NCBI GenBank assembly: GCA_000091205.1
Contig: AP006495.2
Source: Cyanidioschyzon merolae
Taxonomy: Eukaryota
Length of the DNA stretch: 64,000 nt
Strand: one strand, 5' to 3'
Below the pieces are notes generated by a model. It made no database searches. It was not told the DNA's origin and saw only the letters and a program-made list of their open reading frames with translations. The position numbers were made by a program, and so were the translations under genes. Within the stretch, counting starts at the first letter, position 1; each line of letters starts with the position of its first letter. Shown here piece by piece: positions 3,711 through 59,901 of this stretch.

Positions 3711-4093
3711 TGAGGCCTCCAGTCCGCAGTGATGCACGTGCGTGATACGACGTCGTTATGGTAAGCGATAGAATGACTGGGTCTAAACATCATGGAAGCA
3801 TATTTTTCGACCCGATGCGACGCTTGGGCAGCTGCATGCAACGTTCGCACAAGCGTCATCCGCAAGGACCCCATCCGGGACGCAATGTACGATTCCCAGA
3901 CGCTCGCCCAGGATCGTAGGGTACTGCGCAGATAACAACGATCACGCGCTGGTACGTAAGTGTTGCGTCGTGCACGACCGACGGGCTGCTTTGTGAATGG
4001 TACGCATCGCAGTGTGAGCGTCTATTCGCGGAAAGGCGTTTCAGCGCAGCATCGAGCTGCAGCCGCTTCTCTGAGCAAGCAAGCATGCGACAT

Positions 4094-4441
4094 CCATGAC
4101 GATGCAGGCTATGGCATGTGTCCCATGTATGGTGGGTCTTATAGTCGGCGTCCACAAAAAGATAGCCGATTCCCTGCCGATGATACATCCGCTGTGTAGG
4201 AGGGTGTCTCCATGACGATGCAGGCTATGGCATGTGTCCCATGTATGGTGGGTCTTGTAGTCGGCGTCCACAAAAAGATAGCCGATTCCCTGCCGATGAT
4301 ACATCCGCTGTGTAGGAGGGTGTCTCCATGACGATGCAGGCTATGGCATGTGTCCCATGTATGGTGGGTCTTGTAGTCGGCGTCCACAAAAAGATAGCCG
4401 ATTCCCTGCCGATGATACATCCGCTGTGTAGGAGGGTGTCG
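4094..4441. repeat. 116-bp tandem repeat x3 (minisatellite)
   Basis: Unit ccatgacgatgcaggctatggcatgtgtcccatgtatggtgggtcttgtagtcggcgtccacaaaaagatagccgattccctgccgatgatacatccgctgtgtaggagggtgtct starts at 4094, 4210 and 4326 with 1-2 mismatches. It generates the overlapping ORF artefacts 4041-4476. Confidence 0.9.
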
Positions 4442-4501
4442 GTGTTCCGTGCGCATTGCGAGCGCGACGCTGTCACGACATATCTTCCGGGAGGCGTCTC
4501 T

Positions 4502-5683: not shown

Positions 5684-5766
5684 CCACCGCGTCTAATGTT
5701 CTTCTCGAGGAAGCTTCGCGGAGGCCAACACGAAGCTTCAAATCGGGTGTCCGTCCACGCAGTCCA

Positions 5767-5782
5767 AAACAAAAGCGAGGTG
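5767..5782 (-). terminator. RNA polymerase III T-run terminator for tRNA-Ala
   Basis: Immediately 3' of the tRNA the minus strand reads CCTCGCTTTTGTTTT. A TATATAAA element lies ~45 bp 5' of the tRNA, at 5912-5920. Confidence 0.5.
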
Positions 5783-5870
5783 TGGACGTGAGGGGAATCG
5801 AACCCCTGGCCTTGACAATGCTAATGTCACGTCGGGTACTGCAGCAGTCATACCACTTGACGACACGCCC
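5783..5870 (-). tRNA. tRNA-Ala(AGC) with a ~16-nt non-canonical intron between D-arm and anticodon arm
   Basis: The reverse complement folds as acceptor GGGCGTG/CACGTCC with a G3:U70 wobble (the Ala identity element), D-arm GTCA-AGTGGTA-TGAC, anticodon arm TGACA-TTAGCAT-TGTCA (anticodon AGC), variable AGGCC, T-arm AGGGG-TTCGATT-CCCCT, discriminator A. The 17 nt TGCTGCAGTACCCGACG lie between the D-stem and anticodon stem, i.e. N26 plus a 16-nt intron. Confidence 0.7.
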
Positions 5871-5899
5871 GGCAGAGACACCCGCCTGCATTAGACTAG

Positions 5900-6850
5900 A
5901 TCGCAAAATTAGTATATAAATGGATCTTCATCGAAATGATCCTGGGTGCGAACGCCGTCCGGGGCTGCGTCTCAACCAGAGACGTGCTGGCGTCCTCGTT
6001 CCATGGAGCGCGAACTAGACCCGAGTCAGATTGAAATGGGGTACTGAACAGGAAGTTCTTTTCCCCGCTTCACCAAATTTTTCGAATTTTACAGATGCTA
6101 AGCTTCGACATTCGACGTCCAGCGATATGGGATTTCAGATTCATGCGTAAGTTTCGGACTCGTGGGCGCGTTTTCGGGGTGCCTTCTTCGACGATTTGAC
6201 GCTGGAATTCTTTATGTCACCGGAATCAGGACGATTCGCGACGCCCTCGAGGAAGCGTTCGTAAAATGAACTATACGACTGCTCAATTCGTGCCTAAAGC
6301 CTCCAAGCTTCCCATTTCTTTACGACTAGCATGCTCCAATTAAGCATTCTTCAGGTTTTCGATCTTTCTGTTCCGAGGCAACTCGTGTGGGCAGGCATTT
6401 CGCGCCGCTGGAGTCATGGCGTGGAAGCGTAGTCGATGTCGACCCTTGACGAGTTGTTCACATGCTTATGCCGAAAGTTTGTCGAAATCTTCACGTCAAA
6501 TAATAGGTTTTGACTGAATGACAAAATCCTCCTCGAATCGTGGCCATGGACGACTCGCGATTCGGCAGCAACCTGATGCATCTCAGGCGTATATGCACGA
6601 TGAGGCTCTAGTCTCGCACGTTTGCGTGCAAAAGGGTCTTGGACCTGGATATGATCCATTGCGGCGATCGATGTTGGTGGGATGCGCGTCACCGCTTCCC
6701 ACGAGGGAATCGTAAACGGATCGAAAATTCTCGACTTGTTCTCCAACCTGGTTTTTCCCGCACACGTTTCATCATGGATAAAATCGCGCTCCACAAATCC
6801 GATACTGAATGGAGCAGCGTGCGCTTGCGCGTGCTGCCTTCAGTGTACTC
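5900..6850 (+). repeat. dispersed composite repeat family, copy A (5'-truncated; abuts tRNA-Ala upstream side)
   Basis: 60-65% nucleotide identity to 20700-21560 and 37085-38520. Shared blocks include ggaatca..gattcgcgacgccctc, ccaagcttcccatttc, ctgtttcc and gtcaccgcttcccacgaggg...aaaattctcgacttgttctccaacc. Weakly conserved peptides appear on both strands. Confidence 0.7.
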
Positions 6851-7798
6851 GCAGAGGCAATCGTCCAGACGATGCCCGTAATCATAGTGGACGGCACCTG
6901 GCGTGGAAGCGGAGAGAGCAATCACAGGGAGCGCTCAGTGTCCGTCAAGGACATGTATCGGGCGATGAAGCATGCGATGACGCACAAGAAGGCGACACCA
7001 GGACGAGATGATGCGTTGAATGTACATGGACATCTAACGTTAGAGAAGGGTCACCGCTGCAGAGGGCGTCCCGAGACTGCAAAAAAAGAATGAGAAAATG
7101 GCAAGCGAAGCGTTGATCGCGACTTTCGCCTGTGCATGAACTGCATGAACGGCAGCGGGAAGCAGCAACAATGAGGCTTGAGCGCTGTCATTAGCATCCT
7201 TCGACTGCTGACAGCAGCGCTGGAGAGACAGGCGGAACCGGCGTATTGCAAACCGGAGATAAGAGATAGAAAAGTTAGCTATTGCTGACAAAGCCCGTAA
7301 ACGCTGTCTTTGATGACCATGGAAAGAGACCCGATCTTGAGCGTGCCTCCACGAGTTCGGCGAGTCATCCCGCACCACTCTATCCTGGCACGGATATCGT
7401 CTGGATCCGAAGCTCGACAGGGTCGAGGCTTCCGCTTGGTCATATATTTAGAGGCAGTTGCTGAAGTCGCAAAATATATCCGTGCGCGTACTCCCGGCGA
7501 GGCTCGAACGCGCAGCGTGTTCACCACGCACTCGCGACATCGAGCTTACTGAGCACCAAGTCTGCTTATAAGACTCGCGCTCTAACCAGCTGGGGTAGTC
7601 GACGGCGGCGTTGCCAGCCGATAGCTACAGGAGTGCGTCGCAAACGGACAAGCGTCGCAGAACAGCAGCCGACGCCAGTACGGAAAAAAGTCCCATAAAT
7701 TGATATATAAAGAGAAGAGTGCGTCATACGGCAGGCTGCCATGACGGTGCGCGTATCGGGCGTGGTGCCCGCAGTGCCTGCGGTTCGCAGCAGCAACC

Positions 7799-27553: not shown

Positions 27554-30099
27554 TGAGCGTTGGATCGCTGCACGTGGCGCAGCAACACGTTCAGGCATTC
27601 TCGGAAGCGAGGTTTCAAAATTCTTTTCCTTCCAGCAGGCCGTGTTACATACACTGCGTCGAGCTTCAGTTTTGTTATCGCACGAATCTTTTATCGAAAG
27701 AGTCCGGAAGAATATGGACGGATGTGAGCCCCGTATCCGGAACACCCGTGAACTGTAGATTGACGTGCAGCTTCAAGTATCGGACAGCTAGAAGGGCGTT
27801 CGGCGAGCGAGAAGCCTTGCGAGCGCGCATGGCGCCGTTCATCTCATTTTTTGGAAGAGTCTGCAGGTTGATGTGTGTCACAAGGGAGGCCCTTACCATG
27901 GTATCAGCCTGATCTTTCCCCTCCGGCAGCTTTTCTTTCCCTGTAACCCATCGTCCTCTATTCAGGAGCATCTTTCTCTTCTTTGCAAGGTGCGCTCTTT
28001 CCTTCCTCATTTACTTGGCGCTGTGGCTTGGATACGTTTTCCAGACTCCATATCTGTTTTCTTCCGGGGAATTCAGACGCACAGGATGGAGAATACGACT
28101 GAAATTCGCCGATTCTGTTTATGCGTCAAAGATTTGTCAAATACATGTTCATCACCGTGTCCGTGGTGAGCGCACCAAGTAACTGGAGCGCACCTGTCTG
28201 CAACCGCCCGCGCACGAGCAAAGAAGCAAGAAACCTGTTCGGCACTGGAGAAGTGAAAGAAAGATGTGGCGAAAAACGATGCCACGGATGCAAACGACTC
28301 GTCCATTGATCGTTGAGCGTCGAACTAGGGTTTTACAACAGATAAGAGGCATTGGACTGGATTGAACCAGGTAGAACAGGCTGGCTCGAATAGCAGCTGA
28401 GCGCCAATCGCAGCTGGTTACTCGTTGCCCGCTTTTGACTGATGGAAACCCACGTCATCTAAGAGCGGAATAGCAGAGTGTGGAAAGCACGTACCACGAA
28501 GCATGCGTCGACGACGGATGAGGTATTCAAAGATGCCTCACAGTTGGCGATTTGGAAGCGGTCACATGATTGAATCCCCGTTGGCGTTCATGTTGTCATG
28601 ATGCTCGCTTTTCTCTCGTTTACGAACAGCGGTTTGCCGCTCTTTGAGCATTCACATGCAGTTCTACCATTTCTTCCGATTAGAGTCTGATCGTGTTAGA
28701 GGAACACCCGCCCATAGTTTAAAACGCTCTCGTGCTCATGGGAAATCGGTCTCATGTTGTTCAACGAGCGACGGTCTCCCACAGAGCCGAGGTTTTTTTC
28801 TACGTCTATTTCGAGTCTGCATGTAAGCGTTCATGTGAAAGGTACAGAAACTTTGTGTTTAATCGCTTTTTGGTGACATTTTTAGGGAATGTAAGAAGCG
28901 GAATGGACCGAGGAACAAACAGTGGCATAGATCGAGTTTGATTGCTTCAGTTTCCCGTGTACGACGTAAAGTGCAACGACTGTGGCATAGGCGGTTCATC
29001 CATCCGCCGACCATAGAATAACTGACTTTGACGAAAGAGACAGTATTTTCACAAGTTAGCCGCGACAGGGTAGAGTACATCAAATACCCACCTGGAGTCT
29101 ACAGGATATATCCATGTATTGAACAAGTGCGAGAAAAACGAACAAGACAAAAACGGCTTGCAGGTAGAGATGTTCTCAAATTCACTGTTTTAAATAGAAG
29201 AACTTGCGCTCCACCATATCAGAATAAAATGAAGCGGGTCTTCTGATACGGACGTATAGACTAGAGATTGGGTCGTTGCCCGATTTCATCGAAACCAGTC
29301 TTTGTGGACTTGTTTCGCAACTGTCTCATATTGCTCTCTTATTCCAAGCTTTGAATAGGGCTGGCTCCTTTGTTCCTCCAGCTCGATTCGTACTTAGAAT
29401 CAGGAGCTTCTTCTCGACCATCTTCTCAGCGAGTACGCTGTCAGCTGCATGCGCGAGCGCACATTGTACCATTTGATAGCGGACTTGTGCATCATGATGT
29501 TTTCCGTGATGAAACAAGTACGAGAATGAGTTTCCAGGTTGGATATTAATTGAAGATATTTCGATCCATTTACACTTGCTTCGGGCAAATCGTTGGTACA
29601 CGTTCCGCTGCAAGCGATTGCTGCGGTAACTCTAGACCGAGTGCAAGACCCTCGTCAATGCAAACAGGAGAGTCGGGAGCCTCTCCGAGCGGTATCCCGA
29701 AATGAGGTATCATGCTGGTACAAAATACCATTTCGTCAATGGTCAAATAGATATGAATCTTTGTCTTTCGAACGAAATCGGTGGTTTGCAGAGAGTCCTA
29801 CAGAGCACTTCCGGCATGATCTTGTGAGCAACTCGTCAAAGATTGACGTCGAGCGTTTACCTCTTCAGTCCTATGGCGCGAATCGCTGCGACTACGAGTT
29901 GTCTTGGAAATGGTGGACAGAAAATTTGGCGCATGCGCGATATGAGCATACAACAGGTATAAAACGGAGAAGAATCGCGGCTTTTTCATAAGAGTAAGAT
30001 ACCAATATCGATTGGGTTACGAACTTTTGCATACGTACGTCGCGAATCATCCTGACCCCAGTGACGGAACGAATGCCACGTGCAGTGTCGATAGAGCAG

Positions 30100-39446: not shown

Positions 39447-40991
39447 ATGGATGCAACTGCTCATATAGGCAGTGCGTTTGATCTCCGGGGGAATATCGGC
39501 GAAGAAAGCCCTCTCTCAGTGGAGAACGAGGCACCACCAAACGCTTTTCAGGGCACGCGGGGCTCGGACACGGAAAATGATAGCCGACTCTCGCTCGGTG
39601 CGCTTTCGTCCTATGCGCCGTTGCTTGTGGAAGTTGCTTGCCAGCTAAGCAAGTTACGAGATCGACTAAACGACTTGGAGCATCAATCGAGAAAATCGAG
39701 CTGTGTCCAAGACCAGCTGGGTGCACTTGCCAATCAGGTAGCCGTATTAGAGGAGCGCTTGCGCCAGCACGTGCTGGCTCGCGAGCACTGGTGCGCTGCT
39801 GAATCCGTTCCCGAACGGAAATCCCTCCTCGAAAGCGAGGATGCATCGGACGCTGTGGACAAACTCGCCGAGGAGTTCAGAGACCAATTTTTAGACATCA
39901 GAGCGTTCGAGCTCCGCCTCACTCAAGCGGTCAACGCGCGCTTTCTGGAACTCTATCGCTGGACGGAGTCCCAATTGACCCGTCTCGAGGAAAGACTTGC
40001 CAGCATCGACGTGGACGGCTCTCTGAAGCGCGAGATGGCCACGCATGCAGAGCAAATAGGTCAAAAACTGGAACACCTTGAATCGGGCATGCGTTCGTGC
40101 ATTTCACGCGAGGAGTGGTCACGTGAGCGTGACGCCCTTGAAAAGCACCTTCGCCATGATCTCGGCGAGTGCGCGAATCGCAACGCGTCGTCGAAACCGT
40201 CGGCACCCACAGAGCAGGGCACAACCTCAACCTCAGTTGCGCTGGATGCGATGCGTAGTGTCATGCACCTCCAGAGCACCGTCGAGGGGAATGCTCGCGC
40301 TGTCGAGGACGCCCTCACAGCAGTACGCACGAGCTGCCAAGCGCTCAACCAACGTCTGCAAAGAATAGAACACCAGTTAACAACGGATGAATTCGTCGGC
40401 GGCGCTGGCATGCGACAGGTCGCGCCACCACCAGACTGGAACCAGATCCAGCAAACCGTCCGAAAACTCGAAAGCCAGCTGCAGAAACTATCTTCCCGGT
40501 TACCGGATCCCGAAGAAATACACACCGCCGTAACACAGACCAAGGAACTAACTGGCCGGAACGATCAACTCGAACGAAGAGTAGAGCGCTTGCACGTCCA
40601 AATGGAAAGCGAGCGGAACCAGCGCAGCGAGCTGGAGCACAAGGTAACCCGCCTGGAGGACTTTACCAGCACTTTACAATCACTACCCGCCGAGTTGACG
40701 AGTCTCACCAAGTCCATGACCCAAGGCGATGAAGTTCTACAAGAGTGGGTGCGCGGCCAGCTCCAACGACTCGATGCGCGACTCCATGAACACGAATCTT
40801 CACTACACGAGCTTCGTGCGGAGACGGCGCACCTCTACGAACAGTATGCGGAAGTAGCAGCTCTGATCCTGTTGATGACTCCAGCCGACAACCGGGCCAC
40901 AGTGGAGCGACGAATTCGACAACTATTGCCGGGCCTTGGAGCGCTGAAATTGCCCGCATCACGCGCTGGCACCTCCGAGGACACCCGCTGA
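39447..40991 (+). CDS. coiled-coil protein of unknown function
   Basis: 514-aa ORF dominated by heptad-like segments rich in Leu, Glu, Arg and Gln. No enzymatic motifs. Confidence 0.5.
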   Translation: MDATAHIGSAFDLRGNIGEESPLSVENEAPPNAFQGTRGSDTENDSRLSLGALSSYAPLLVEVACQLSKLRDRLNDLEHQSRKSSCVQDQLGALANQVAVLEERLRQHVLAREHWCAAESVPERKSLLESEDASDAVDKLAEEFRDQFLDIRAFELRLTQAVNARFLELYRWTESQLTRLEERLASIDVDGSLKREMATHAEQIGQKLEHLESGMRSCISREEWSRERDALEKHLRHDLGECANRNASSKPSAPTEQGTTSTSVALDAMRSVMHLQSTVEGNARAVEDALTAVRTSCQALNQRLQRIEHQLTTDEFVGGAGMRQVAPPPDWNQIQQTVRKLESQLQKLSSRLPDPEEIHTAVTQTKELTGRNDQLERRVERLHVQMESERNQRSELEHKVTRLEDFTSTLQSLPAELTSLTKSMTQGDEVLQEWVRGQLQRLDARLHEHESSLHELRAETAHLYEQYAEVAALILLMTPADNRATVERRIRQLLPGLGALKLPASRAGTSEDTR

Positions 40992-41356
40992 ATGCACGCG
41001 AACAAACCTGCGCGCAACGATAAACCTAGCGCCTGCAGCTCAAACGAAACGTCCCGCCATCGACAGCAATTGCAGCACGCAGCGCAGGTTTACGGACGCG
41101 AGCATGCACGGCACTAGAAGCGATTCGGCATCCGTGCCGCCCCGTGCCTACCCTACATGCGCGTCGGCGACAGGGTGAACGCGCGAGCACGTGCCGTACC
41201 CCAGCCGTTAGCAACGAATCAGCGCCGGCGCCGCGCTCATTCGCGCGCATCGTCGGGCGCAGCACCTGCATGCGTGCGCGCACGTGCATCGCATGGAGCT
41301 GCGGCCACGTACAACGTGCCACGTGTCCATGCATCGTGCACGTAGCCGGGCGCTAC

Positions 41357-41420
41357 GTGCTGCTGCTGCTGCGGCGGCGGCAGCGGCGGCAGCGGCGGCA
41401 GCGGCAGCGGCAGCGGCAGC
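41357..41420. repeat. (GCN)~20 trinucleotide repeat (GCT/GCG/GCA)
   Basis: gctgctgctgctgcggcggcggcagcggcggcagcggcggcagcggcagcggcagcggcagcg. It sits between the 3' ends of convergent genes and yields poly-Ala artefact ORFs. Confidence 0.9.
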
Positions 41421-41670
41421 GGGCACCCCGGGATCATCAGGTGCCGGCGGCAGCGTACCGCAGACCCGTGGGCATCGACGGCACATCCGACGCGCCACGC
41501 CTCTAGGTGGCATCGAGCGTTCGCGACTGCCGCCGCCGCCACGCAGTGTCCTGGTGCCGGTGTGCACGCACCGACGGCGGCTGCCAGGAGCGTCTGCCGC
41601 GTCGTCTGCGACGTGCCGGTTGCGGTTGCCGGCTCGTTGACGGTAGGCGCGCCGCTGGCGCCAGCCCGAG

Positions 41671-44600
41671 TCAGGGCGCGGCACGCTGTAGCGCATCCGC
41701 GCGCAGCACCAGGCCGTACACGTACGGGCCGCGCACTCCGCCGTGTGCGTGTCGATCCCACTCGCCGGTGACCTCCAGGTTCAGTATTTTGCTGAAAAAT
41801 TGTTTGATTCGGTAAATTCTGAGCGGCTCCCGATGAGCGGCACCTTGACCAGCCCGTGGTGGTGCACTGTATCGATTGAAGTGGTCTTTGAGATTCCGTA
41901 AACGTACGAAATCCGTGCTCTTGGGGTTTCGGCGCACATTCTCTGTGATATCGTAGTGCTGGAGAAGGAAACCCGCGAATCGGGCGTACGCGTTATCGCT
42001 CCGGTGGATGCGCTCCAGCAGTTCGAGTCGTTCGCTCCGGGTCTGGGGCGGCTCGACGTCTCCCAGACCCTCAAGGGTGATCGGTGCTGTGCGGTCGCTC
42101 GAGGCCGACGAAGAGCGCACGTCGAGACTTTCGCCACTGGCGCCTTGCTCGAGCCAGCGGCTTCCAGCGGGGGCACGCGTTGCGTCATGGTGCAAGGCGC
42201 TGGATCCGGGAGCAGGAGCCTCATTCGGGGCGGATCCATCGCGCGTTCGCTGCTGGGCCGGTGCTTGCGGTGCGGCTGCAGCACCGGACGCTCTTCGCTT
42301 GGTTTTCGCTGCAGATGATACGCTGCCCGCTGTATCATGTTCTAAGCGCTGCGTAACTCGCGCGGCAGCCACCGCGGGGAACCTCTCTGGCATCGTCAAG
42401 TCAGGGTTGGTGCAAACGCCTTCGTCAGCTAGTGCACGTTTCCGTCCAGCTCTGTCCTCTAGATACCGCGCAGCTTCGCCATTATCGTACCGAGTCGAGG
42501 TCGATGCCGGCATCGCGCCGGGTCGCCGGTGCACGCTCGCATCCTCAGCTGCCGACAACGACGGACGCTCATTGATAAGCGCCCACGAGGCAGGTGCGGA
42601 AACGCTGGTTTCGGGTCCCAGCGAATGACCCGGTGCTGGGCGAGGCATGGCGCCCGGTTCTCCGGACTCGAACGCAAAAACAGACCCGGGCAGGTTGGCG
42701 TTCAGCATCGATCGAGTACCCATCGGCTGCGACTGTGACCCCGGTAACGTGGCGGTGCCTCGTGAACTGCCTCGACCGTGGCCCGCCCCACCAGTATGGT
42801 GCAGCAACAGCGGCGATGCGCTCGTGGTACCTGGATCAACCGCCGCGTTGGGCGTGCGCATCATCTGGCCGGGTGACAGGGCTGCCGCCGCTCCACCAGC
42901 CGTCACAAGCGATCGGCTTCCCGACGTCGACACATGCACCGCGGACGACGGATGACTGGCGTTTGGCGCTACAATGCCGCTCAGGCTACTGAGATGCTCC
43001 GTCGGAGGCGCGCGCATAAAGTCAGGATTTGTTCCCGGGACTCGTCCAGTGGGCTCCATGATCGAGCCGCGTGCAAGTGGCGTGGTTGCACCAGCAGACA
43101 AGAGTGCATGAAACGAATCGACGCGGTGCAGTTTCTCGGTGTAGGAATCTTCATCCACGCTACTTGGAGCTCCCACGACGACCTCGGGTATGCTGCGGTC
43201 GGAGCCGCCGCCGCCGCCGCCGCCGCCACCACCAACGCCGCTGCTGCCCATGCCCATGCCGCTCGAAACAAGCGCCATTTGTTGGTTCCCAAATGTGCCC
43301 GCACTCACACCGTACATCAAAGAGGAGCCTCCGTTTCCGCCACCTGGTCCCTGAGCGTAACCGTTACTGCCGCCAAGACCCGGGGAAGGCCCCGCCAGCT
43401 GCGCGCCATTCGCCCCGCTCGCACTGCCGCCCAGATCAAAAACGTTGTGCAGCGGATCGTCTTGGCTCATGGACCAGACCCGTGGGAGCAGTCCAACATG
43501 ATCGCCTCCGATCGAATCACCAGCTATTTCCTGATCATCGATGCTGGCGTCGCTATCTCGCATGGGACGCTCAGGCTGCCTTCCGCTAGGTAGTTCGTGA
43601 CCAAGATCGCTCAGCCCGAAGAGGTCTTCCTGTTTAGAATCCAACACGTTGTAGACCTCATCAATGGGCCAATCGCTCATGAGTTCCTGAGTCCCCTTCA
43701 GCGATAGCGTATTCGGGACCCGCACACCGTAGCCGCGCTTGTTCAGCACAACTTGGCGAAGGTATCGAAGCGCGTCCCGGGCTCGGCGACGTGCTACCCG
43801 ATTCTCGACAACCGGTCGCGGATAGGTGACACCCAGTTCAACCCTAGCCTGATGCAGAATCGTCGGAGGGCATTTCCACACCGCATGGATGTAGCTACTG
43901 GGGATCTGTTGCAACTCTGGACACCAGGTACGCACGTACTCACCCTCGGGGTCTACGCGCATGCCCATCACGACTGGGTTCACGAGGCAATTCAAGGGGA
44001 AAACGTCGTAGTTGCAGCCCGTCACCCACTGCCAGCAGATCGCGTTGCTCGCCAGATCGCCATCGATGAATAGTTTGAAGAGGCAACGAGCCCCGATCTG
44101 CCACGGCAGGAGAAGGTACTTGGTAAAAAAAGAAGCTACAAGAAACCGCAGATTCGAATGCAACCAGCCGGTGTGGTGCAGTTCCCGCATTGCCGCATCA
44201 ACGAGTGGGTAGCCCGTGCGTCCCGAGAGCCACACCTCGAGGAGACGGCCCACATCTTCCTTGGTGCATGGAAAATGATCAAATTCTGGCACCAGTGGTC
44301 TATCCAGGATCGATGGTCGGTAAAATAGCATATGATAAGCGTACTCGCGGAGGCAGAGGTTTCTCAGGAGCGTTCGAGCAGCCCGAATTATTGCATCTGA
44401 TGGCTCAGACTGCAGTACAGACGCCCGAACAGCGTGGTAGAGGCGCCGCGGTGACAATTCTCCGAACCGTAGGTACGGCGAAAGCCGTGATGTCCCGTTT
44501 CGGAGACGCTGTCGTCTTCGAGCGTCCCCATACGTCGGAAAGACACTCGTCAAGAAGTCTTGCAGGCGCTCTGCTACACAATCCACGCCGGGGCGCCAGT

Positions 44601-49457: not shown

Positions 49458-50308
49458 TCAGCCGCATACGGATGCGTCTTCGACGGCGCAGTCCAGGACC
49501 CGAACTCCTGGTTTGTGTGCTTCGTGGTACATGTAATCATCACGGTTTGTTGAGTAGGGGAAGAGGGGCAGGATTGCCTCGTCATGAATTTCGTTCGTGA
49601 AGTCGGCGAAGCCTACGTAGAACGCAAGCGACCCGGCAATGATCGCGCGTGTTGCTGCCGGGTACTTGACACCACTCGCAAACGTTGTAATGGCCAGCAT
49701 GAGGTATATTAGACCGACGAAAAAGACGGTAAGACTCAAAGCGTACTTCGTTCTCAGTGCCTGGGCACAGAGCATTGGGAAACGACGCAGTAAATTACGC
49801 AGTAAATGAAGGTACCTGCTCTATCGGTTGCGGGGGAGCGACTCGGATTGAGCAGCTCCACCAGAAGCTGTATGTCACGAGCGCCCCAGAATACGCTGTA
49901 GATCGAAAACGCGGTTGCGCAGAACAGGTTATCATATCGGAAACACCACATACCGGCAATGAACTGATCAAGATCGCCAGTGATGAGCGCAACCGCGAAC
50001 AGGTTCTTCGCGGTGGTCCCGTGTAAGTCCACGTCCACGAGAAGCGTCGCGATACCGAACGACCGGAGACCACGTGGCGCCGGATTCGCCGCAGCACTCA
50101 CGTGCTCGACCACGGAAGAGTGCTGCTTGAGCGCGTCAACCAACGGGGACTCGCGAGCCGCTGCGTCACTGTTTGCCGATGAAAAACCTCCGCTTCGTTG
50201 CGCAGCGGCATATGCAGCGAACTTTACGCCCTGATCCAGGCTAGGGACTTCCGTACTGGACCGAAGGGCGTGCGAGAGGGATTCACCAAGTGATTGAAGC
50301 GCAGCCAC
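49458..50308 (-). pseudogene. GPR1/FUN34/YaaH (acetate transporter, AceTr) family paralog disrupted by a frameshift
   Basis: ORFs 50308-49754 and 49775-49458 together align with the downstream paralog: NPAPRGLRSFGIATLL signature, then DRAGTFIY..., then in another frame LCAQALRTKYALSLTVFF.... The junction region is 50 nt where the paralog has 51 nt, a 1-nt deficit. A 12-bp direct duplication tttactgcgta/atttactgcgtc sits at the junction. Confidence 0.55.
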
Positions 50309-50654
50309 TTGCTACTCGAGCTGCTGAGCCTCTGAACGCAGGTTTTCATTTTCCGTTGCCAGTTTATTCCAATAACTCGCCCGTGCACTACGAAGGACCT
50401 ATTACAGGTTCGCGCCACGCGTAAACTACAATACAAAAACTATGGTACGCAGATTATGTTTCCCGAAAGATACATGCATGCCGTATCTGCAGTCGATCGC
50501 ACGGTCGGTGTTGAACGAGATCAATGTGTCCCGGGTACACGACGAAAAGCGTCCTGCTGCTCTTGGCGTGCAGCAGGACGTCCGGGCGTCGAAATGGTAT
50601 CCCATCCGGAACCGAACGCGCCCTCAACTTGGACGCATCGAAATCGTTTTCCCC

Positions 50655-50946: not shown

Positions 50947-51867
50947 TCAAACAGGCGGGATATCGACGGCGCTCTTATGAGCATGCGGCCGAGGTACGTA
51001 CCGCTTGCCTTCTTCGTAGTCGCGAGCGTGTCGCGGATGTGGAAACAAAGGAATCAGCGGTTTCTCATATATTTCGTTGGTAAAGTCTGCTAGACCCACG
51101 TAGAAAGCGAGCGATCCGGCGATGATCGCACAAGTCGCTGCAACGTACTTGACGCCCTCCACGTATGCAGTAATTGCTAGGAAAATGTACACGAGGGCGA
51201 CAAAGAATACCGTCGCGCTCAAGGCGTAATTCATTCGCAGTGCTTGAACTAATAGAATCAAGGTCAGGATGCAAAATATCACATAAAAAATACAGGTTCC
51301 CGCGCGATCAGCGGACGGGAAAAGTCCCGGATGGAGCAGCTCCACTAACAGCTGCACGCCACGCGCACCCCAGTATGATCCGAACAGGGAAAAAGCCGTT
51401 GCGCCGAACGTATTGTTCCGCCGGAAACACCACATACCCGCGAGAATTTGTGCCAAACCCCCAATAATGAGCGCCACAGAAAAAGTGTTTTTAGCAGTCG
51501 CACCGTACAGATCAGCACCGGCTAGCAGCGTCGTCACTCCAAAGGCAAACAGACCAAGTGGCGTCGGGTTCGCCACCATACTAGCCAGGGAGATCACCTG
51601 GGACTGTTGCTGTAGCGCGTCCAAGATCTGCATACTGTCTCGATGATGAATTTGCTCCTCTAGAGAAAGGCTCATATTTCGATCGTTTTGCGAATCGAAA
51701 CGCGCAGCCAGGCACTTGTGAGCAGCGCAAGCCTCGAACTCGCGTGCCGCGGCAGCCGCACCCGCCGCTACCTTTTGTTGGAGCGCGGTCACGCGCTCTT
51801 CCAAGAGGCTGATCCTCTCAAGCAAGGAAAGATTTCCCAAGTCCGCGTCGGTCATCAGGAAACGCAA
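50947..51867 (-). CDS. GPR1/FUN34/YaaH family acetate/monocarboxylate transporter (AceTr)
   Basis: Family signature NPTPLGLFAFGVTTLL. Six hydrophobic segments. The N-terminal coiled-coil region LSLLERISLLEERVTALQQK is typical of eukaryotic Ady2/Gpr1-like members. Confidence 0.8.
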   Translation of the reverse strand: MRFLMTDADLGNLSLLERISLLEERVTALQQKVAAGAAAAAREFEACAAHKCLAARFDSQNDRNMSLSLEEQIHHRDSMQILDALQQQSQVISLASMVANPTPLGLFAFGVTTLLAGADLYGATAKNTFSVALIIGGLAQILAGMWCFRRNNTFGATAFSLFGSYWGARGVQLLVELLHPGLFPSADRAGTCIFYVIFCILTLILLVQALRMNYALSATVFFVALVYIFLAITAYVEGVKYVAATCAIIAGSLAFYVGLADFTNEIYEKPLIPLFPHPRHARDYEEGKRYVPRPHAHKSAVDIPPV

Positions 51868-52984: not shown

Positions 52985-53662
52985 GTGGACAGCATGCAGA
53001 AATCTAGTTTTATATGGGCGTTGATTTTCGGTGTGTTCGCACTATGGCTCCAAGTGCCTAGTGTCCAGGCTTGGTCGTACACCATGACACCGTTGTACGA
53101 GTTCACGCCTACGTGCACGCCGACGCCAATGTGTACGCCCACACCCACTTGTACGCCGACGCCGACCTGCACACCCGTCTTCGAGCCAAAGCACTATCAC
53201 GAGTACGTGCTCTGTGGCGACTATACCCAGACTGGAGACATTGAAAAATGTGAAAAATACGGATGTCGCTGGATTCCGACCAATTACTGCGGACTGGAAA
53301 ACGAATGGGCCCAGTACAAAGGCGTCTGCGTGGTGATCCCGAACAAGGCCCCCGAATGCCAGAATATTCCATACTTCAAGCGCATCAACTGCGGATACGA
53401 TGGAATCACGCCGCATGAGTGCGCCGAGCGCGGTTGCTGCTGGGAAGGCGGCCCGAATCGTTACAACTGGTGCTACTACCCTCGCAAGTGCCGCGATGTC
53501 TGCGTCGAGGAGGTCACAGCCGAGGGAGAAGTCTGTGTGGAATGGACCAAGCCCAAAGGTTACGGCAAGCAGGAAGAGAAACCGGTCTGCATCAAGTGGA
53601 AGCCCAAGACCAAGTGCCTCAAATACGTCAAAGAATGCAGTGACGAGTGCTACAAACCCTAG
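52985..53662 (+). CDS. secreted cysteine-rich protein with a trefoil (P-type) domain and Thr/Pro-rich linker
   Basis: N-terminal signal peptide MDSMQKSSFIWALIFGVFALWLQVPSVQA. Mucin-like PTCTPTPMCTPTPTCTPTPTCTP. RINCGYDGITPHECAERGCCWEGGPNRYNWCYYP fits the trefoil pattern [KRH]-x2-C-x-[FYPSTV]-x3-[ST]-x3-C-x4-C-C-[FYWH]. Lys/Cys-rich C-terminus. Confidence 0.65.
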   Translation: MDSMQKSSFIWALIFGVFALWLQVPSVQAWSYTMTPLYEFTPTCTPTPMCTPTPTCTPTPTCTPVFEPKHYHEYVLCGDYTQTGDIEKCEKYGCRWIPTNYCGLENEWAQYKGVCVVIPNKAPECQNIPYFKRINCGYDGITPHECAERGCCWEGGPNRYNWCYYPRKCRDVCVEEVTAEGEVCVEWTKPKGYGKQEEKPVCIKWKPKTKCLKYVKECSDECYKP

Positions 53663-54122
53663 ACAGGACCGAATGGGATGACGACCAGCACCAAGGCCTC
53701 GTGGCTTCCACGACCAAAGTGTATCCAACGGAATTCAATCAGTCAGTCAATCAATCTTACATCATGGATCGATTCGGAACGATGCAAGGAACGATCGCAC
53801 GACGACGACGTCGCCGCCTAGCGCAGCGATGCCTGCACGCATCGCGTCAGTATCGATCACCGGGTGAAGCGGGTGCGTGCGTGCGCGCGCGCCTAACGTC
53901 CGCCAGGAATGGACACGCGGCGTGCGTGCGTGCGTGCATGCGTGCGTGCGTGCACGGATCACCTGGAACAGATGCGTGCTCGTGCAAAGAGAAAAAAGAC
54001 AAGGAATGCCTGATATAAAGGAAGCGTGAATGACTGCTCTCTTATGAACCAGTTGCTTCTTGTGACTGCGTCCCAATACCTTAGCAACCCAAGCGCTTGA
54101 GACACTGCACCCACTTCAAATA

Positions 54123-56961: not shown

Positions 56962-59901
56962 TTAGCACACACCTTGCCAGGTTGTCACATCGCCGCTTAC
57001 GCTGAGCGTTGGCTTCCGCACGACAACGCGTTCACCAGCATGCAAATAGAACACGAAACGCTCTAGCGGAACGTGCGCACAGCGAGACAAGTTGGACGGC
57101 GGCGGGAGTGCATCCAGCGCCTGCAACGTCAGCCTCAGTTGCAGCGACGTCGATCCATTGGCAAGTCGCTGTCCCATTGCTGCGATTCGCCAGAAACAAT
57201 AATCGCCTCGTTGGTAACCGTAAGAAAGACCGTCATCCAAATAGAGCATGCCACGGGCTTGGAATCCAGCATCCAAGGCAACGTGCAGAGTCAGCGGATC
57301 CCCGAGCATCAGGCTGCTTGAGCGACGCTGTCGCTCCCAGCGCGGTATGATCGAGCCACCGCGTTGGAACACATACATCGATGAGAGTGCTGGTTTTGGA
57401 TAAACTAGGGTATCTTGCCCCCGATGGACAAGATGCTCGCCAGAGAAAAGTCGTCGTGTGCGCGGCAGTACTGGATACCAGCAGAGCGAAGCTGGTCCCG
57501 GCAGTGTGATGCGATGCGTTGACGGGGCTGCTTCCAGTACTGGAGCAACCAGCAAGGCGTCGCCCAAGAGCCAGCTAGACTGAACTCCCGCCAGCGACGA
57601 TTCATCAGGAAACACGTAAAAAAGCGGCCGAATGACAGGTAGCGTGCGTTCGGCCGCGAAGAGCACGTACCAGTACGGTAGCAATGCGTAGCGCTCTTGA
57701 ATCGCCTCTCGAATGAGGCTCGTATACGGTTCACCGAATAACCACGGCTCCCGTCGCTTGGTGTCCAAGTGCGCGTGACCACGGAAAAACGGCTGATAGG
57801 CGGCTGCTTGATACCAACGCGTCAGCAGGTCGGCTTGCGGGTTCCCGAAAAAGCCCCCAACATCCGCCCCGACAAACGCGATGCCCGCCACGCTGATCGA
57901 GAGCAGCATCGGCACCGAGGCTGCCAGGTGTGACCACTGGGCAGCGTTGTCGCCTGTCCAGACTGCCCCGAATCGCTGGCTTCCCGTGAAAAAACTGCGG
58001 GAAAGAACGAAGGGTCTCAGGTTCCCTTGCCGGCCGCGATAAAGGCCCTCAAAGGTCGCTCGGTGCACCATGTGTCCGTAGATGTTGTGGATATCGGAAT
58101 GTTCTAAAGCGCCCAGCCGATGGCGGACGTTTTTCGGAAAGGTGCCTTCGGGTCCATTGAACACTGAAGGCTCGTTCATATCAACCCAAATGTGGAGGTG
58201 CTCTGTCATGCCATGGTAGAACGACGGAACGAAACACGAGCTCCAGCCGGTCTGTACGCGCGGATCCATAAAGTCTGGGTAGTGACTCTTTCCTGGCCAG
58301 CACCAGCCCTCGTAGATAGAGACGCCGTCACCAGAGCGAACGTACCAGTCCTCCTTCAGGGCTCGTTCGTGCAGCGAGTAATTCGGTTCCGCCTTGATAT
58401 GCGGATCCACGATGGTGACCAGCTTCCGTTTGGCCTTCTCGAAAAGCGTTTGCTGCAGGCGAGCGGGGTCAGGAAATTTCGCTCCGTCCCAGGTGAAGTA
58501 CTTCTTGTTGTCTGTGTGCTCGATATCCAGCCACAGCACATCGTACGGAATGTCATTCGCATCAAACTGACCATCCACATGGAGGGCGTCCGCCTCATCA
58601 CGATAATTCCAGCGCGACTGGTGATAGCCCAGTGCAAACACTGGAGGCAGTGGTGCATGTCCCGTCAGTAGGGCCAGCTGTTGCGAGACCTCCACCGGAG
58701 ACGGGCCCGCAAACACGAACATCTCCGGGATACCTCGTTCAGAAATGAAGTGCGCATGTGGCATCGCGGTTCCGCGCTCCTGGTCTAACAACGGACACAA
58801 GTCTACGTAGGTTTCGCTTGCCGGCATCCAGAGCGCTCCAACGGTATGCGCGGATCCATTGAGAGCCAGGATGAAGGGTATCGATCCGTAGAGACCCAGC
58901 TCGCTATTCAGTTCGTATTCGAAGACGTCCAGGTTGTAGAGACGAAGAGGCTCTCTCGTACAGGTCGTGGGTAAGCGCAGATCCAGCGCATGTTCCGGAA
59001 GGCCGTACAACCCAATAGCACGAGGAAAGGCAACATCTGCCGCAACGGAACCAGCTGCTGTGGTATTTGCGTCCAGCGGGATCCAAGCGAGGAGCTCCGC
59101 TGCGTTCCAAACCAGTGAAGGACGGGTAGTGGTGGCAGTGGAATTCTGCAGCAAGGCACACCAGTCCGCAACGTTGTTGAAGAGCGCTATCCGACATGGT
59201 TCGTGTTGGACCCGCAGTACGTTATAGACGGGTTCTGTTGAGGCGTGGCTTGTACTTGCAGTAACGATAACGGTTTCCGTGTCCGACGAAAGCCATGCTG
59301 CGGACGACACGTACGGACAGGAGGTTGCTGTACTCGCAGCGAGTCGCTCCAACTGCAACCACGGTTCCCGATACATCATAACGTCTTCGACTGGTGAGTA
59401 GCGTTCATACTTTGAGACGGATGCGTGCTGCTTCCTTCGTCGCAGGAGCCCAAGCTGAATCGTGTCGCTGGGTGGAGGCTCACGTACTCGAATCGAGAAG
59501 ATCGAGTGCGTAACAGCTCCTACTTCGAGTTGGAGCTGAGACAACGTCCCCGAATCATTTGCTTCCCGCTGCAACAGCTCAAAAATGAGAACCGATGATG
59601 ATGTTTTCTGCAAGCGAAACGGCTCCGGCTCTCTGAGTCGGCATCGAGTACCTGGAGCCGTAGCGTTTGCCGCTAGTTCCTGTTGCGAGGTCTGTTGCTC
59701 TCGACGCTGTCTGTGGTAGGCACAGAAACTTTGCGTCGAACAGCGGGCGTATTTGCCTCGTTCTGCAGCCTGAACGCCTGCCAGTTCCCAGATCAGAAAG
59801 CATAAAACGAAGATGAAGCCAACGGTGCTCCACAGGGGATACTGCGACCCTGCTCGGAACCTAGCGCGCTGCATGACTTGTTCCAGCGCATGTACGGACA
59901 C
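56962..59901 (-). CDS. glucosidase II alpha subunit / neutral alpha-glucosidase (glycoside hydrolase family 31)
   Basis: GH31 catalytic-region signatures WVDMNEPS and GIAFVGADVGGFFGNPQADLLTRWYQAAAYQPFFRGHAHLDTKRREPWLF. N-terminal hydrophobic signal/anchor. The length and domain order fit ER glucosidase II alpha. Confidence 0.85.
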   Translation of the reverse strand: MSVHALEQVMQRARFRAGSQYPLWSTVGFIFVLCFLIWELAGVQAAERGKYARCSTQSFCAYHRQRREQQTSQQELAANATAPGTRCRLREPEPFRLQKTSSSVLIFELLQREANDSGTLSQLQLEVGAVTHSIFSIRVREPPPSDTIQLGLLRRRKQHASVSKYERYSPVEDVMMYREPWLQLERLAASTATSCPYVSSAAWLSSDTETVIVTASTSHASTEPVYNVLRVQHEPCRIALFNNVADWCALLQNSTATTTRPSLVWNAAELLAWIPLDANTTAAGSVAADVAFPRAIGLYGLPEHALDLRLPTTCTREPLRLYNLDVFEYELNSELGLYGSIPFILALNGSAHTVGALWMPASETYVDLCPLLDQERGTAMPHAHFISERGIPEMFVFAGPSPVEVSQQLALLTGHAPLPPVFALGYHQSRWNYRDEADALHVDGQFDANDIPYDVLWLDIEHTDNKKYFTWDGAKFPDPARLQQTLFEKAKRKLVTIVDPHIKAEPNYSLHERALKEDWYVRSGDGVSIYEGWCWPGKSHYPDFMDPRVQTGWSSCFVPSFYHGMTEHLHIWVDMNEPSVFNGPEGTFPKNVRHRLGALEHSDIHNIYGHMVHRATFEGLYRGRQGNLRPFVLSRSFFTGSQRFGAVWTGDNAAQWSHLAASVPMLLSISVAGIAFVGADVGGFFGNPQADLLTRWYQAAAYQPFFRGHAHLDTKRREPWLFGEPYTSLIREAIQERYALLPYWYVLFAAERTLPVIRPLFYVFPDESSLAGVQSSWLLGDALLVAPVLEAAPSTHRITLPGPASLCWYPVLPRTRRLFSGEHLVHRGQDTLVYPKPALSSMYVFQRGGSIIPRWERQRRSSSLMLGDPLTLHVALDAGFQARGMLYLDDGLSYGYQRGDYCFWRIAAMGQRLANGSTSLQLRLTLQALDALPPPSNLSRCAHVPLERFVFYLHAGERVVVRKPTLSVSGDVTTWQGVC

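What the first reader, a model, noticed from the sequence alone, without database searches (positions are those of the whole stretch)
52985..53662. Small secreted protein with a perfect trefoil (P-type) domain in an alga, 3.3 kb from a GH31 glucosidase gene
Residues RINCGYDGITPHECAERGCCWEGGPNRYNWCYYP satisfy the trefoil consensus exactly. They are preceded by a signal peptide and a Thr/Pro/Cys mucin-like linker, and followed by a Lys/Cys-rich tail. Trefoil domains are best known from animal mucosal peptides and as N-terminal modules of GH31 alpha-glucosidases (GAA, SI, MGAM). A free-standing trefoil protein in a unicellular photosynthetic eukaryote is unusual. The nearest enzyme gene downstream, at 56962-59901, is a GH31 glucosidase II alpha. 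This hints at a possible carbohydrate-binding partnership or a domain-shuffling history.
Basis: partly seen in the sequence, partly recalled or inferred. Interest (0 to 1): 0.6.

Follow-up and report, generated by a model that had tools for sequence, protein, structure and literature searches.

The report
Overlooked secreted trefoil protein, red alga
[quoted passage not shown] Trefoil genes are already well known in this alga, so it is an overlooked extra family member and has no demonstrable tie to the nearby GH31 glucosidase.

Summary
Window 52994-53662 (+) encodes a 222-aa protein with a signal peptide, a Thr/Pro/Cys repeat linker, a canonical trefoil domain and a Cys/Lys-rich tail. The trefoil scores 48 bits on Pfam (cutoff 21), E=2e-13 to porcine TFF2, and its model superposes on TFF3 and TFF1 crystal structures (TM 0.70-0.72).

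By intermediate-sequence evidence it is a degenerate trefoil.

The window is C. merolae 10D, in a non-subtelomeric region among housekeeping genes. Orthologues exist in a second variant (probably Cyanidiococcus) and in Cyanidium. Purifying selection is strong (omega about 0.05).

The claim that this is unusual fails. "Trefoil factor" genes have been described in this genome since 2007, and 15 TFF-like genes are now counted.

This copy is missing from the published kelch/trefoil/hint catalogue, as is its Cyanidium orthologue. It also appears absent from the 10D protein set.

The GH31 idea is unsupported. That enzyme is ER glucosidase II alpha and has no trefoil. A flavoprotein gene lies between the two. 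Their proximity is part of a broad syntenic block. The trefoil protein has no N-glycosylation sequon.

The most likely role is an acid-stable extracellular glycan-binding protein. This is inferred, not shown.

The parts
52994..53662 (+). Complete intron-less coding sequence: 222 codons plus stop. The mature protein is about 196 aa, 22.7 kDa, with 22 Cys.
   Evidence: ORF list and sequence. Start Met is shared with the orthologues. Against the Cyanidiococcus-type copy, dN/dS is about 0.05 with saturated dS. Against Cyanidium, dN is 0.42 and dS 2.15.
52994..53071 (+). Signal peptide, residues 1-26: MQKSS, a hydrophobic core FIWALIFGVFALWL, then VQA|W.
   Evidence: Mean Kyte-Doolittle hydropathy of residues 5-22 is +1.8. 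Small residues sit at -3/-1 in all three orthologue types (VQA, VMA, ALA). The sequence evolves fast (dN 0.84) while keeping its hydrophobic character. No dedicated signal-peptide predictor was available, so this is inferred.
53072..53191 (+). Thr/Pro/Cys-rich linker, residues 27-66, with four TPTPxC units. The underlying 18-bp tandem repeat lies at 53105-53163.
   Evidence: Composition: 14 Thr+Ser, 10 Pro and 4 Cys in 40 residues. The tandem repeat has period 18 and 3.3 copies. Unit number differs between strains and species: 3, 4 or 5 linker Cys. AF2 predicts disorder, pLDDT <50.
53192..53344 (+). Module D1, residues 67-117: a degenerate trefoil-like domain (LCGDY...EKCEKYGC-RW...GVCVV). It lacks Cys1 and Cys5 of the trefoil. 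It also lacks the Asn/Asp and Trp lectin-site residues.
   Evidence: Most conserved part of the protein, dN 0.021. Direct similarity to animal trefoils is weak: hhalign probability 5% and 3-5 bits with shuffle p 0.01-0.08. The D1 profile scores 22.0 bits against module 1 of a subtelomeric Cyanidiales T protein on L018 (0 of 5000 shuffles reach it). That module scores 18.8 bits against an animal-only trefoil HMM (0 of 5000). The AF2 model shows a helix followed by a hairpin, as in the trefoil module. Foldseek aligns 94 columns to two-domain TFF2.
53345..53485 (+). Canonical trefoil (P-type) domain, residues 118-164. Cys122, 133, 143, 148, 149 and 160. Lectin-site equivalents are Asn132 and Trp159.
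   Evidence: Lectin-site residues are mapped from PMC7221086 onto the alignment.
53486..53659 (+). C-terminal Cys/Lys-rich tail, residues 165-222: 7 Cys and 12 Lys. Predicted as a long two-stranded beta-hairpin. It has no relatives outside the orthogroup.

Best explanation
This is a bona fide single-copy nuclear gene of Cyanidioschyzon merolae, conserved across three Cyanidiales lineages. It lies in a non-subtelomeric region of an 867-kb chromosome.

The protein consists of:
1. a signal peptide;
2. a disordered Thr/Pro linker studded with a variable number of cysteines;
3. a degenerate trefoil module (D1);
4. a canonical trefoil module;
5. a lineage-specific Cys/Lys-rich beta-hairpin tail.

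It is a diverged member of the already known TFF-like ("trefoil factor") gene family of Cyanidiales. It shares the layout linker, degenerate trefoil, canonical trefoil with a subtelomeric T gene. It has been missed by the published family catalogue and apparently by the 10D gene models.

**Proposed mechanism (inferred, not shown).** After ER translocation and oxidative folding, the protein is exported to the cell surface or matrix, which faces pH 0.5-3. There the disulfide-locked trefoil fold is stable. The canonical trefoil binds a glycan in its loop 2/loop 3 cleft through the conserved Asn132 and Trp159, as in vertebrate TFF lectins. Asn is the non-ionisable variant that keeps TFF1 and TFF2 active at low pH. 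Multivalency, and hence cross-linking of surface glycoconjugates, would come from intermolecular disulfides of the linker cysteines. It could also come from the strongly cationic tail binding acidic polymers.
For: **Identity and reality of the gene.**
- Pfam, PDB and fold matches.
- Invariant Cys/Gly/Arg columns shared with 73 animal domains.
- Per-domain scores of 35-48 bits against the 33 best-matching animal trefoil domains.
- Orthologues in a second variant (probably Cyanidiococcus) and in Cyanidium caldarium (KAK4536204.1) at syntenic positions.
- Omega about 0.05 with saturated synonymous sites and unalignable upstream DNA.

**Family relation.** L018 is a Cyanidiales chromosome end carrying a Kelch+Hint gene and a T gene. 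D1 links to T module 1, and T module 1 links to the animal trefoil profile; both links beat 5000 of 5000 shuffles.

**Overlooked status.**
- The exact sequence, with four possible ATG starts, is absent from a 15-billion-protein collection that does hold its neighbour BAM80961.1.
- The 90% cluster it would belong to has no 10D member.
- There is no chromosome 13 gene, and no CDCA07G2229, in the KTH catalogue.

**Secretion.** Signal peptide features are conserved in all orthologues. Cys totals are even in 10D (22) and Cyanidium (20), but odd in the 228-aa variant (23) and the Cyanidiococcus-type copy (21). The odd totals hint at an unpaired or intermolecular Cys.

**Lectin hypothesis.**
- TFF3 Asp20 / TFF1 Asn and the Trp before Cys6 are the only side chains contacting GlcNAc-alpha-1,4-Gal. 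Asn preserves binding at pH 2.6 (PMC7221086).
- The equivalents here are Asn132 and Trp159. Trp is invariant; Asn becomes Asp in Cyanidium.

**Context.** Other TFF-like genes of these algae are secreted and mostly expressed in the cell-walled diploid phase (PMC13353863).
Against: - No expression, secretion or binding data exist for this gene. If it is unannotated, published RNA-seq tables cannot contain it.
- Asn/Asp and Trp are conserved in most trefoil domains, so their presence does not prove lectin activity or any particular ligand.
- GlcNAc-alpha-1,4-Gal is not known in red algae.
- D1 lacks both lectin residues, so the monomer would be monovalent.
- The structure model is of moderate confidence (mean pLDDT 67.5). 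I could not read its coordinates to verify the 1-5, 2-4, 3-6 disulfide pairing.
- The link of D1 to trefoils rests on a single intermediate sequence.
- C. merolae 10D haploid cells have no cell wall, so the extracellular partner is unknown.
- "Unannotated in 10D" is inferred from absence in protein collections and one catalogue, not from the GenBank record itself.
Confidence: 0.6

Rival explanations
1. One reading: the trefoil protein is a carbohydrate-binding partner of the neighbouring GH31 glucosidase, or a relic of domain shuffling with it.
For: Trefoil domains are fused to some GH31 enzymes. One hit in my search (P0057) is a GH31 with six trefoil domains and a CBM26. SI, MGAM and GAA give weak PDB hits. 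The order trefoil, flavoprotein, GH31 is conserved in Cyanidium.
Against: - The GH31 is the glucosidase II alpha orthologue (1e-202 to GANAB), an ER N-glycan trimming enzyme, and it has no trefoil domain.
- It is on the opposite strand, with another gene in between.
- Synteny extends to at least six unrelated genes, so it is not specific to this pair.
- There is no N-x-S/T sequon in the C. merolae or Cyanidium protein.
- Eukaryotic neighbours are not generally co-functional (general knowledge).
Confidence: 0.04
2. The protein is an extracellular or periplasm-like Cys-rich metal or stress protectant, not a lectin. The thiols or the polycationic surface would buffer heavy metals or protons.
For: Several C. 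merolae trefoil-factor genes are induced by nickel (PMC12112623). The protein is 11% Cys, with Cys embedded in the repeat linker. The authors of PMC13353863 suggest acid protection for TFF-like proteins.
Against: - Cys totals are even in two of the four variants and the trefoil Cys pattern is invariant. This points to structural disulfides, not free thiolates, for the folded modules.
- Thiol-metal binding is weak at pH 1-2 (general chemistry).
- The nickel data concern other family members (kelch+trefoil), not this gene.
Confidence: 0.1
3. It is a cell-cell recognition or signalling ligand of the recently discovered sexual cycle. Candidate roles are gamete or diploid surface adhesion, analogous to the trefoil domains in animal zona pellucida proteins.
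For: TFF-like and Hog genes of Cyanidiophyceae are strongly phase-biased between haploid and diploid cells (PMC13353863). The protein is secreted and Cys-rich, with a variable-length linker.
Against: The very strong purifying selection (omega about 0.05, D1 dN 0.02) and single-copy conservation are unlike the fast-evolving pattern usual for recognition proteins. There is no phase-expression information for this gene.
Confidence: 0.12
4. The trefoil resemblance is convergent, or the gene is a recent horizontal acquisition from an animal.
For: PMC13353863 proposes convergence for cyanidiophycean TFF-like genes. The best-scoring relatives outside the orthogroup are animal proteins. This domain scores higher against animal domains (35-48 bits) than against the one subtelomeric algal paralogue I could recover (24 bits).
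Against: - Similarity covers the whole 43-residue profile, including non-Cys positions (R130, G134, G137, I138, W159, the ECxxRGCCW stretch), at 40-48% identity. The fold is the same. This is hard to reach by convergence.
- Against recent transfer: the gene is syntenic in three divergent Cyanidiales lineages with saturated dS. It has host-like GC content and shares a multi-module layout with other algal T genes.
- Trefoil-like domains are also reported in a green alga, a cryptomonad, an apusomonad and choanoflagellates (PMC5741210).
Confidence: 0.06
5. It is a chance ORF or a pseudogene that is not expressed.
For: No transcript evidence was accessible. The gene appears unannotated in 10D.
Against: The frame is intact in four sequence types from three lineages. 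There are 93 synonymous against 58 non-synonymous differences versus the Cyanidiococcus-type copy, while the flanking DNA is unalignable. The family match is significant. The antisense 228-aa ORF has no family match.
Confidence: 0.02

Closest known systems
TFF-like / 'trefoil factor' genes of Cyanidiales: the K+T and T-only genes of the kelch-trefoil-hint family, OG0000296 (Nozaki 2007; Cho 2023; Plant Cell 2026)
   Same: - Same organisms.
- Signal peptide, Thr/Pro-rich linker and trefoil domain.
- The module order (linker ending in Cys, degenerate trefoil, canonical trefoil) matches the subtelomeric T gene on L018.
   Different: - Not subtelomeric: no telomere repeat, kelch or hint in 64 kb, and the neighbours are housekeeping genes.
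- Single copy and syntenic across lineages, not a multi-copy, recently duplicated gene.
- No kelch domain.
- Cys inside the linker repeats.
- A unique Cys/Lys beta-hairpin tail.
- Its trefoil scores only 24 bits against the subtelomeric T trefoil, but 35-48 bits against animal domains.
- Absent from the published catalogue.
Vertebrate TFF2 (spasmolytic polypeptide), and TFF1/TFF3
   Same: - Small secreted protein built on trefoil modules. Two modules in tandem, as in TFF2, is the best sequence hit (2.3e-13) and a 94-column fold hit.
- Six-Cys pattern.
- The Asn and Trp of the lectin site are conserved.
- A presumed acid environment, like gastric TFF1/TFF2.
   Different: - The first module is degenerate: it has lost Cys1/Cys5 and both lectin residues.
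- An extra mucin/AGP-like linker and a 58-aa tail.
- No orthology with the vertebrate genes.
- Ligand and partner are unknown.
- No evidence of mucin co-secretion.
N-terminal P-type domains of GH31 alpha-glucosidases (GAA, SI, MGAM) and of protist GH15 glucoamylases
   Same: Same domain family (weak PDB hits to SI, MGAM and GAA). These show that trefoil domains occur outside animals (PMC5741210).
   Different: Here the domain is free-standing, not fused to a glycosidase. The adjacent GH31 belongs to the glucosidase II subfamily, which lacks the domain.

Membership tests
Trefoil (P-type) domain, Pfam PF00088 | Profile HMM score above the curated gathering threshold over the full domain | tested here: met
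   48.1 bits against a cutoff of 21, profile positions 1-43 of 43.
Trefoil (P-type) domain, Pfam PF00088 | Six cysteines with spacing C-x(9,10)-C-x9-C-x4-CC-x(9,10)-C, plus conserved Arg, Gly and Trp | tested here: met
   Spacing is 10, 9, 4, 0, 10. C122/133/143/148/149/160 and G134 are invariant, and R130/G137/I138 are above 90%, in a 78-sequence alignment. W159 precedes Cys6.
Trefoil (P-type) domain, Pfam PF00088 | Three-loop fold locked by 1-5, 2-4 and 3-6 disulfides | tested here: inconclusive
   The fold matches TFF3 and TFF1 crystal structures (TM 0.72/0.70, rmsd 2.5 A, probability 1.0). Model coordinates were not readable, so the disulfide pairing itself was not checked.
Vertebrate TFF peptides (TFF1-3) as lectins | Ligand-contacting Asn/Asp before Cys2 and Trp before Cys6 | tested here: met
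   Asn132 (Asp in Cyanidium) and Trp159 are present in the canonical module. Both are absent from D1.
Vertebrate TFF peptides (TFF1-3) as lectins | Binding of GlcNAc-alpha-1,4-Gal on mucins; divalency | not testable with these tools
   Needs recombinant protein and glycan binding assays.
Vertebrate TFF peptides (TFF1-3) as lectins | Protein made of trefoil module(s) only, orthologous to the vertebrate TFF locus | tested here: not met
   Extra linker and tail modules have no relatives. The only full-length relatives are cyanidialean.
Cyanidiales kelch/trefoil/hint (KTH) subtelomeric family | Location in subtelomeric duplicated regions | tested here: not met
   No telomere repeat in the window. 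Neighbours are citrate synthase, DCP1, a sigma factor, a photolyase and similar genes. The position is syntenic in Cyanidium, far from that contig's end.
Cyanidiales kelch/trefoil/hint (KTH) subtelomeric family | Signal peptide, Thr/Pro-rich linker and trefoil module; shared module order with T genes | tested here: met
   D1 against T module 1 scores 22 bits (0 of 5000 shuffles). The canonical modules score 24 bits against each other.
Cyanidiales kelch/trefoil/hint (KTH) subtelomeric family | Listed in the published catalogue / orthogroup OG0000296 | tested here: not met
   There is no chromosome 13 gene among the 22 C. merolae entries. Cyanidium G2229 is not among its 12 entries.
GH31-attached trefoil (GAA/SI/MGAM type) | Trefoil fused in cis, N-terminal to a GH31 catalytic domain | tested here: not met
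   It is a separate gene. The neighbouring GH31 has only GH31 domains and is the GANAB type.

The most novel reading that the evidence does not exclude
This gene is the ancestral founder of the whole cyanidialean TFF-like family: single-copy, non-subtelomeric and syntenic. It retains the most animal-like trefoil and an intact lectin site, and works as a TFF2-like tandem-trefoil lectin at external pH below 2. If so, trefoil lectins would be homologous between red algae and animals. That would imply an ancient eukaryotic origin or a very old transfer, not the convergent evolution recently proposed. The model strain's annotation would lack the key family member.
Probability: 0.25. Interest if true: 0.5.

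Novelty: new member of a known kind. Interest (0 to 1): 0.3.

Why it matters
C. merolae is a genetically tractable model organism. Its TFF-like genes are a noted curiosity of unknown function, with proposed roles in acid protection, cell-wall or diploid-phase biology and the nickel response.

A conserved single-copy family member with a canonical trefoil and intact lectin residues would be a much cleaner knockout and biochemistry target than the 15 near-identical subtelomeric copies. If it is truly missing from the 10D gene models, it has been invisible to every transcriptome and proteome analysis so far.

It also bears on whether algal and animal trefoils are homologous or convergent.

As a discovery of a new kind of system it is minor. 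The domain family, its presence in this alga and the general architecture are all already described.

Tried and rejected
1. **Kelch+trefoil paralogues by protein search.** A short-domain alignment query found no candidates. A full-length alignment at E<=10 returned only TP-rich low-complexity proteins. Long hits in the exhaustive search were animal multi-trefoil proteins, not K+T.
3. **Annotation status from contig look-ups.** The contig index does not hold the 10D genome, so the negative look-ups are uninformative.
4. **Plant Cell 2026 gene tables.** These are truncated before chromosome 13, so I could obtain neither the gene's ID nor expression values for its orthologues.
5. **D1 as a trefoil by direct comparison.** Pfam alone gave no hit, hhalign gave probability 5% and the animal HMM gave 3-5 bits. 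This was insufficient alone and was only resolved through the L018 intermediate.
6. **First AF2 run** with five sequences was too poor to use, pLDDT 53.
8. **The tail** has no match in Pfam, PDB sequences or NCBIfam.
9. **Transcript evidence.** The 1,182-bp Logan contig carrying the Cyanidiococcus-type copy ends 12 bp after the stop codon, so it is not informative as a transcript.
10. **Rfam** on the window found only the tRNA.
Full report
**1. What is there**

Window 52985-53662 (+) is an uninterrupted ORF. The first ATG is at 52994, and the orthologues start at the same Met, so the product is 222 aa. I divide it into five parts:

| Part | Residues | Description |
|---|---|---|
| Signal peptide | 1-26 | Typical; VQA\|W cleavage motif |
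| Linker | 27-66 | Thr/Pro-rich, four TPTPxC units, encoded by an 18-bp tandem repeat at 53105-53163 |
| Trefoil | 118-164 | Canonical trefoil domain |
| Tail | 165-222 | 7 Cys and 12 Lys |

The mature protein is about 22.7 kDa with 22 Cys. It has no N-x-S/T sequon and a hydrophilic C-terminus.

**2. Is the trefoil real?**

Yes.
- Pfam PF00088 scores 48.1 bits (cutoff 21) over the complete profile.
- phmmer against PDB sequences gives porcine TFF2 at 2.3e-13, TFF1 at 3e-9 and TFF3 at 1.5e-7. It also gives weak hits to the P-domains of SI, MGAM and GAA.
- The PROSITE-style pattern (recalled from memory) matches once in the six-frame translation of the whole window. It matches in 2 of 20,000 shuffles of this Cys-rich protein.
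- An exhaustive profile search of 1.84 billion representatives gave 397 hits. All except the Cyanidium orthologue matched only the trefoil segment.
- The ten best of these come from animals and unnamed metagenome sequences. Eight carry names: multi-trefoil proteins of amphibians, reptiles, a tunicate and two cnidarians.
- On a per-domain basis, the 33 best-matching animal trefoil domains score 35-48 bits.
- All six Cys and G134 sit on invariant columns of a 78-sequence alignment.
- With that alignment, AlphaFold2 gave pLDDT 71-90 for residues 70-222. Foldseek then matched the TFF3 and TFF1 crystal structures (TM 0.72 and 0.70 normalised to target, rmsd 2.5 A, probability 1.0). Foldseek E-values were only 0.03-0.06 for this short domain. 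It also matched two-domain TFF2 over 94 columns.
- I could not inspect coordinates, so the disulfide pairing is inferred from the fold.

**3. Organism and reality of the gene**

The neighbouring 503-aa ORF is identical to XP_005536997.1/BAM80961.1 of Cyanidioschyzon merolae 10D, on an 866,983-bp chromosome. Supporting features include 55% GC, long intron-less ORFs and a nuclear sigma-70 gene.

Relatives over the full length are few:
- a 97% identical variant with one extra TPTPMC unit, from JGI and ENA metagenome contigs (the JGI samples look like Yellowstone hot springs, from my recollection of the sample names);
- an 82% identical variant, probably Cyanidiococcus;
- the 51-54% identical Cyanidium caldarium protein KAK4536204.1 (CDCA07G2229), named "P-type domain-containing protein" by UniProt.

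| Comparison | Result |
|---|---|
| vs Cyanidiococcus-type copy, synonymous | 93 differences over 130 sites (saturated) |
| vs Cyanidiococcus-type copy, dN overall | 0.12 |
| dN by module | D1 0.02, trefoil 0.06, tail 0.07, signal peptide 0.84 |
| Upstream DNA | Unalignable |
| vs Cyanidium | dN 0.42, dS 2.15 |

This is a functional, constrained gene. The antisense 228-aa ORF has no family match.

**4. Already known or not?**

The class is known.
- Nozaki et al. 2007 mapped "trefoil factor" genes at C. merolae chromosome ends.
- Cho et al. 2023 described kelch+trefoil, trefoil-only and kelch+hint genes joined by Thr/Pro/Ala linkers as the dominant subtelomeric duplications.
- A 2026 Plant Cell paper counts 15 TFF-like genes in C. 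merolae. [quoted passage not shown]
- A 2025 paper reports nickel induction.

This copy, however, is not in Cho's complete list. None of the 22 C. merolae genes is on chromosome 13, and Cyanidium G2229 is not among that species' 12 entries.

The 10D sequence, tried with four possible ATG starts, is also absent from a 15-billion-protein collection that does contain its neighbour. It is absent as well from the 90% cluster where it would belong. I therefore regard it as an overlooked, probably unannotated, member. I have not seen the GenBank record itself.

**5. Relation to the known family**

I scanned metagenome contigs for the CZME/CCYA telomere repeat and recovered chromosome-end contigs. One of them, L018, carries a Kelch+Hint gene and next to it a trefoil-only T gene. 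This is the published "T, KH" arrangement.

That T protein has the same layout as ours: a TP-rich linker ending in Cys, a first module "LCGSPGQCINQDACEQVGCCFNSQTNAC", then a canonical trefoil.

| Comparison | Score | Shuffle control |
|---|---|---|
| D1 profile vs T module 1 | 22.0 bits | 0 of 5000 reach it (max 9.4) |
| T module 1 vs animal-only trefoil HMM | 18.8 bits | 0 of 5000 reach it (max 14.5) |
| D1 vs animal trefoil HMM (direct) | 3-5 bits | p 0.01-0.08 |
| D1 vs animal trefoil profile (hhalign) | probability 5% | n/a |

So D1 is best read as a degenerate trefoil that has lost the Cys1-Cys5 disulfide and both lectin residues. The protein is then a tandem-trefoil protein of the cyanidialean T type.

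Its canonical trefoil is closer to animal domains (35-48 bits) than to the T paralogue (24 bits). This fits slow evolution here and fast evolution at subtelomeres.

The tail has no relative anywhere.

**6. The GH31 hypothesis**

- The GH31 at 56962-59901 (-) is the glucosidase II alpha orthologue, 1e-202 to mouse/human GANAB structures. It has only GH31 domains.
- The only trefoil motif in the window is ours.
- A flavoprotein gene lies between the two.
- In Cyanidium the same neighbourhood also keeps the sigma factor, a Tel2-like gene and the RRM protein, with one inversion. The proximity therefore reflects general synteny.
- With no sequon, the trefoil protein is not an N-glycan client either.
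- Trefoil-GH31 fusions do exist elsewhere, but in a different GH31 subfamily.

I give this idea about 4%.

**7. Likely function (inferred)**

The protein has a signal peptide, Cys totals that are even in 10D and Cyanidium, and a disordered Thr/Pro stalk that could carry O-glycans. The stalk could be mucin-like or arabinogalactan-like; this is my inference. Together these suggest export to the acid-facing cell surface.

[quoted passage not shown] TFF1 and TFF2 use Asn, which preserves binding at pH 2.6 (PMC7221086). The equivalents here are Asn132 (Asp in Cyanidium) and invariant Trp159.

A single intact site per chain means that cross-linking would need oligomerisation. The number of linker cysteines varies (3, 4 or 5), so the parity of the total varies between strains. 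That hints at intermolecular disulfides. The Lys-rich hairpin would be strongly cationic at pH 2.

None of this has been tested.

**8. Verdict**

It is wrong on rarity and on GH31.
- Novelty: a new member of a known kind.
- Interest is modest. Its value lies in offering a clean, single-copy, conserved entry point to an unexplained gene family in a tractable model alga. It also argues for homology, not convergence, with animal trefoils.

Noticed in passing
window 53105-53163, and L001-L005 8001-8687: The TPTPxC linker is length-polymorphic. 10D has four units. The metagenome strain (97% identical protein) has five. The Cyanidiococcus-type and Cyanidium proteins have three linker Cys. This changes the parity of the total Cys count between strains.
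   Followed up: partly
L018 (OGCG01002731.1) 1-7441: A metagenome contig ends in the Cyanidioschyzon/Cyanidiococcus telomere repeat. It carries a Kelch+Hint gene (3358-5613, -) and a multi-trefoil T gene (6346-7440, -, N-terminus cut off). The T protein's first module is an intermediate between canonical trefoils and the D1 module of the window gene.
   Followed up: yes
L025 1792-4302 (-) and 7168-9117 (+): Another telomere-ended contig carries an HCO3-/anion transporter and a copper amine oxidase. These are the 'A, O' subtelomeric genes described for C. merolae chromosomes 9 and 20.
   Followed up: partly
versus PMC13353863: The 2026 paper states that TFFs occur only in vertebrates outside Cyanidiophyceae. 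My search returned multi-trefoil proteins from cnidarians (Clytia, Dendronephthya) and a tunicate (Styela). A 2015 paper reports trefoil-like domains on glucoamylases of a green alga, a cryptomonad, an apusomonad and choanoflagellates. The convergence argument therefore rests on too narrow a distribution.
   Followed up: partly
window 49863-50417 (-) and 50947-51867 (-): Two adjacent Gpr1/Fun34/YaaH-family (acetate/ammonium channel-like) genes sit just upstream of the trefoil gene. They are absent from the corresponding interval in Cyanidium (L006), where the RRM gene is inverted and lies directly upstream.
   Followed up: partly
window 53840-53965: A GC-rich (GCGT)n-like microsatellite (gcgtgcgtgcgtgc...) lies in the 460-bp spacer between the trefoil gene and the flavoprotein gene.
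   Followed up: no
window 5782-5870 (-): tRNA-Tyr(GTA) of 89 nt, found by ARAGORN and Rfam. It is longer than a standard tRNA, so it presumably contains an intron.
   Followed up: no
window 28001-30000, and 40001-44000: GC content dips to 0.47 at 28-30 kb, just upstream of a 1122-aa ORF that matches the Tel2-like gene of Cyanidium. It rises to 0.62 at 40-44 kb, over a 1225-aa photolyase/cryptochrome gene with a long C-terminal extension.
   Followed up: no
window 53042-53728 (-): A 228-aa antisense ORF covers the whole trefoil gene. It has no family match and is most simply a shadow ORF of a GC-rich coding region.
   Followed up: partly
P0004 (JGI, on a 175-kb contig) and P0003/P0006: Automatic gene calls for the orthologues disagree on the start. 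The products are 266 aa (extended upstream), 218-228 aa, or 171 aa (starting at an internal Met and so losing the signal peptide). Such truncated calls would hide the secreted nature of the protein.
   Followed up: no
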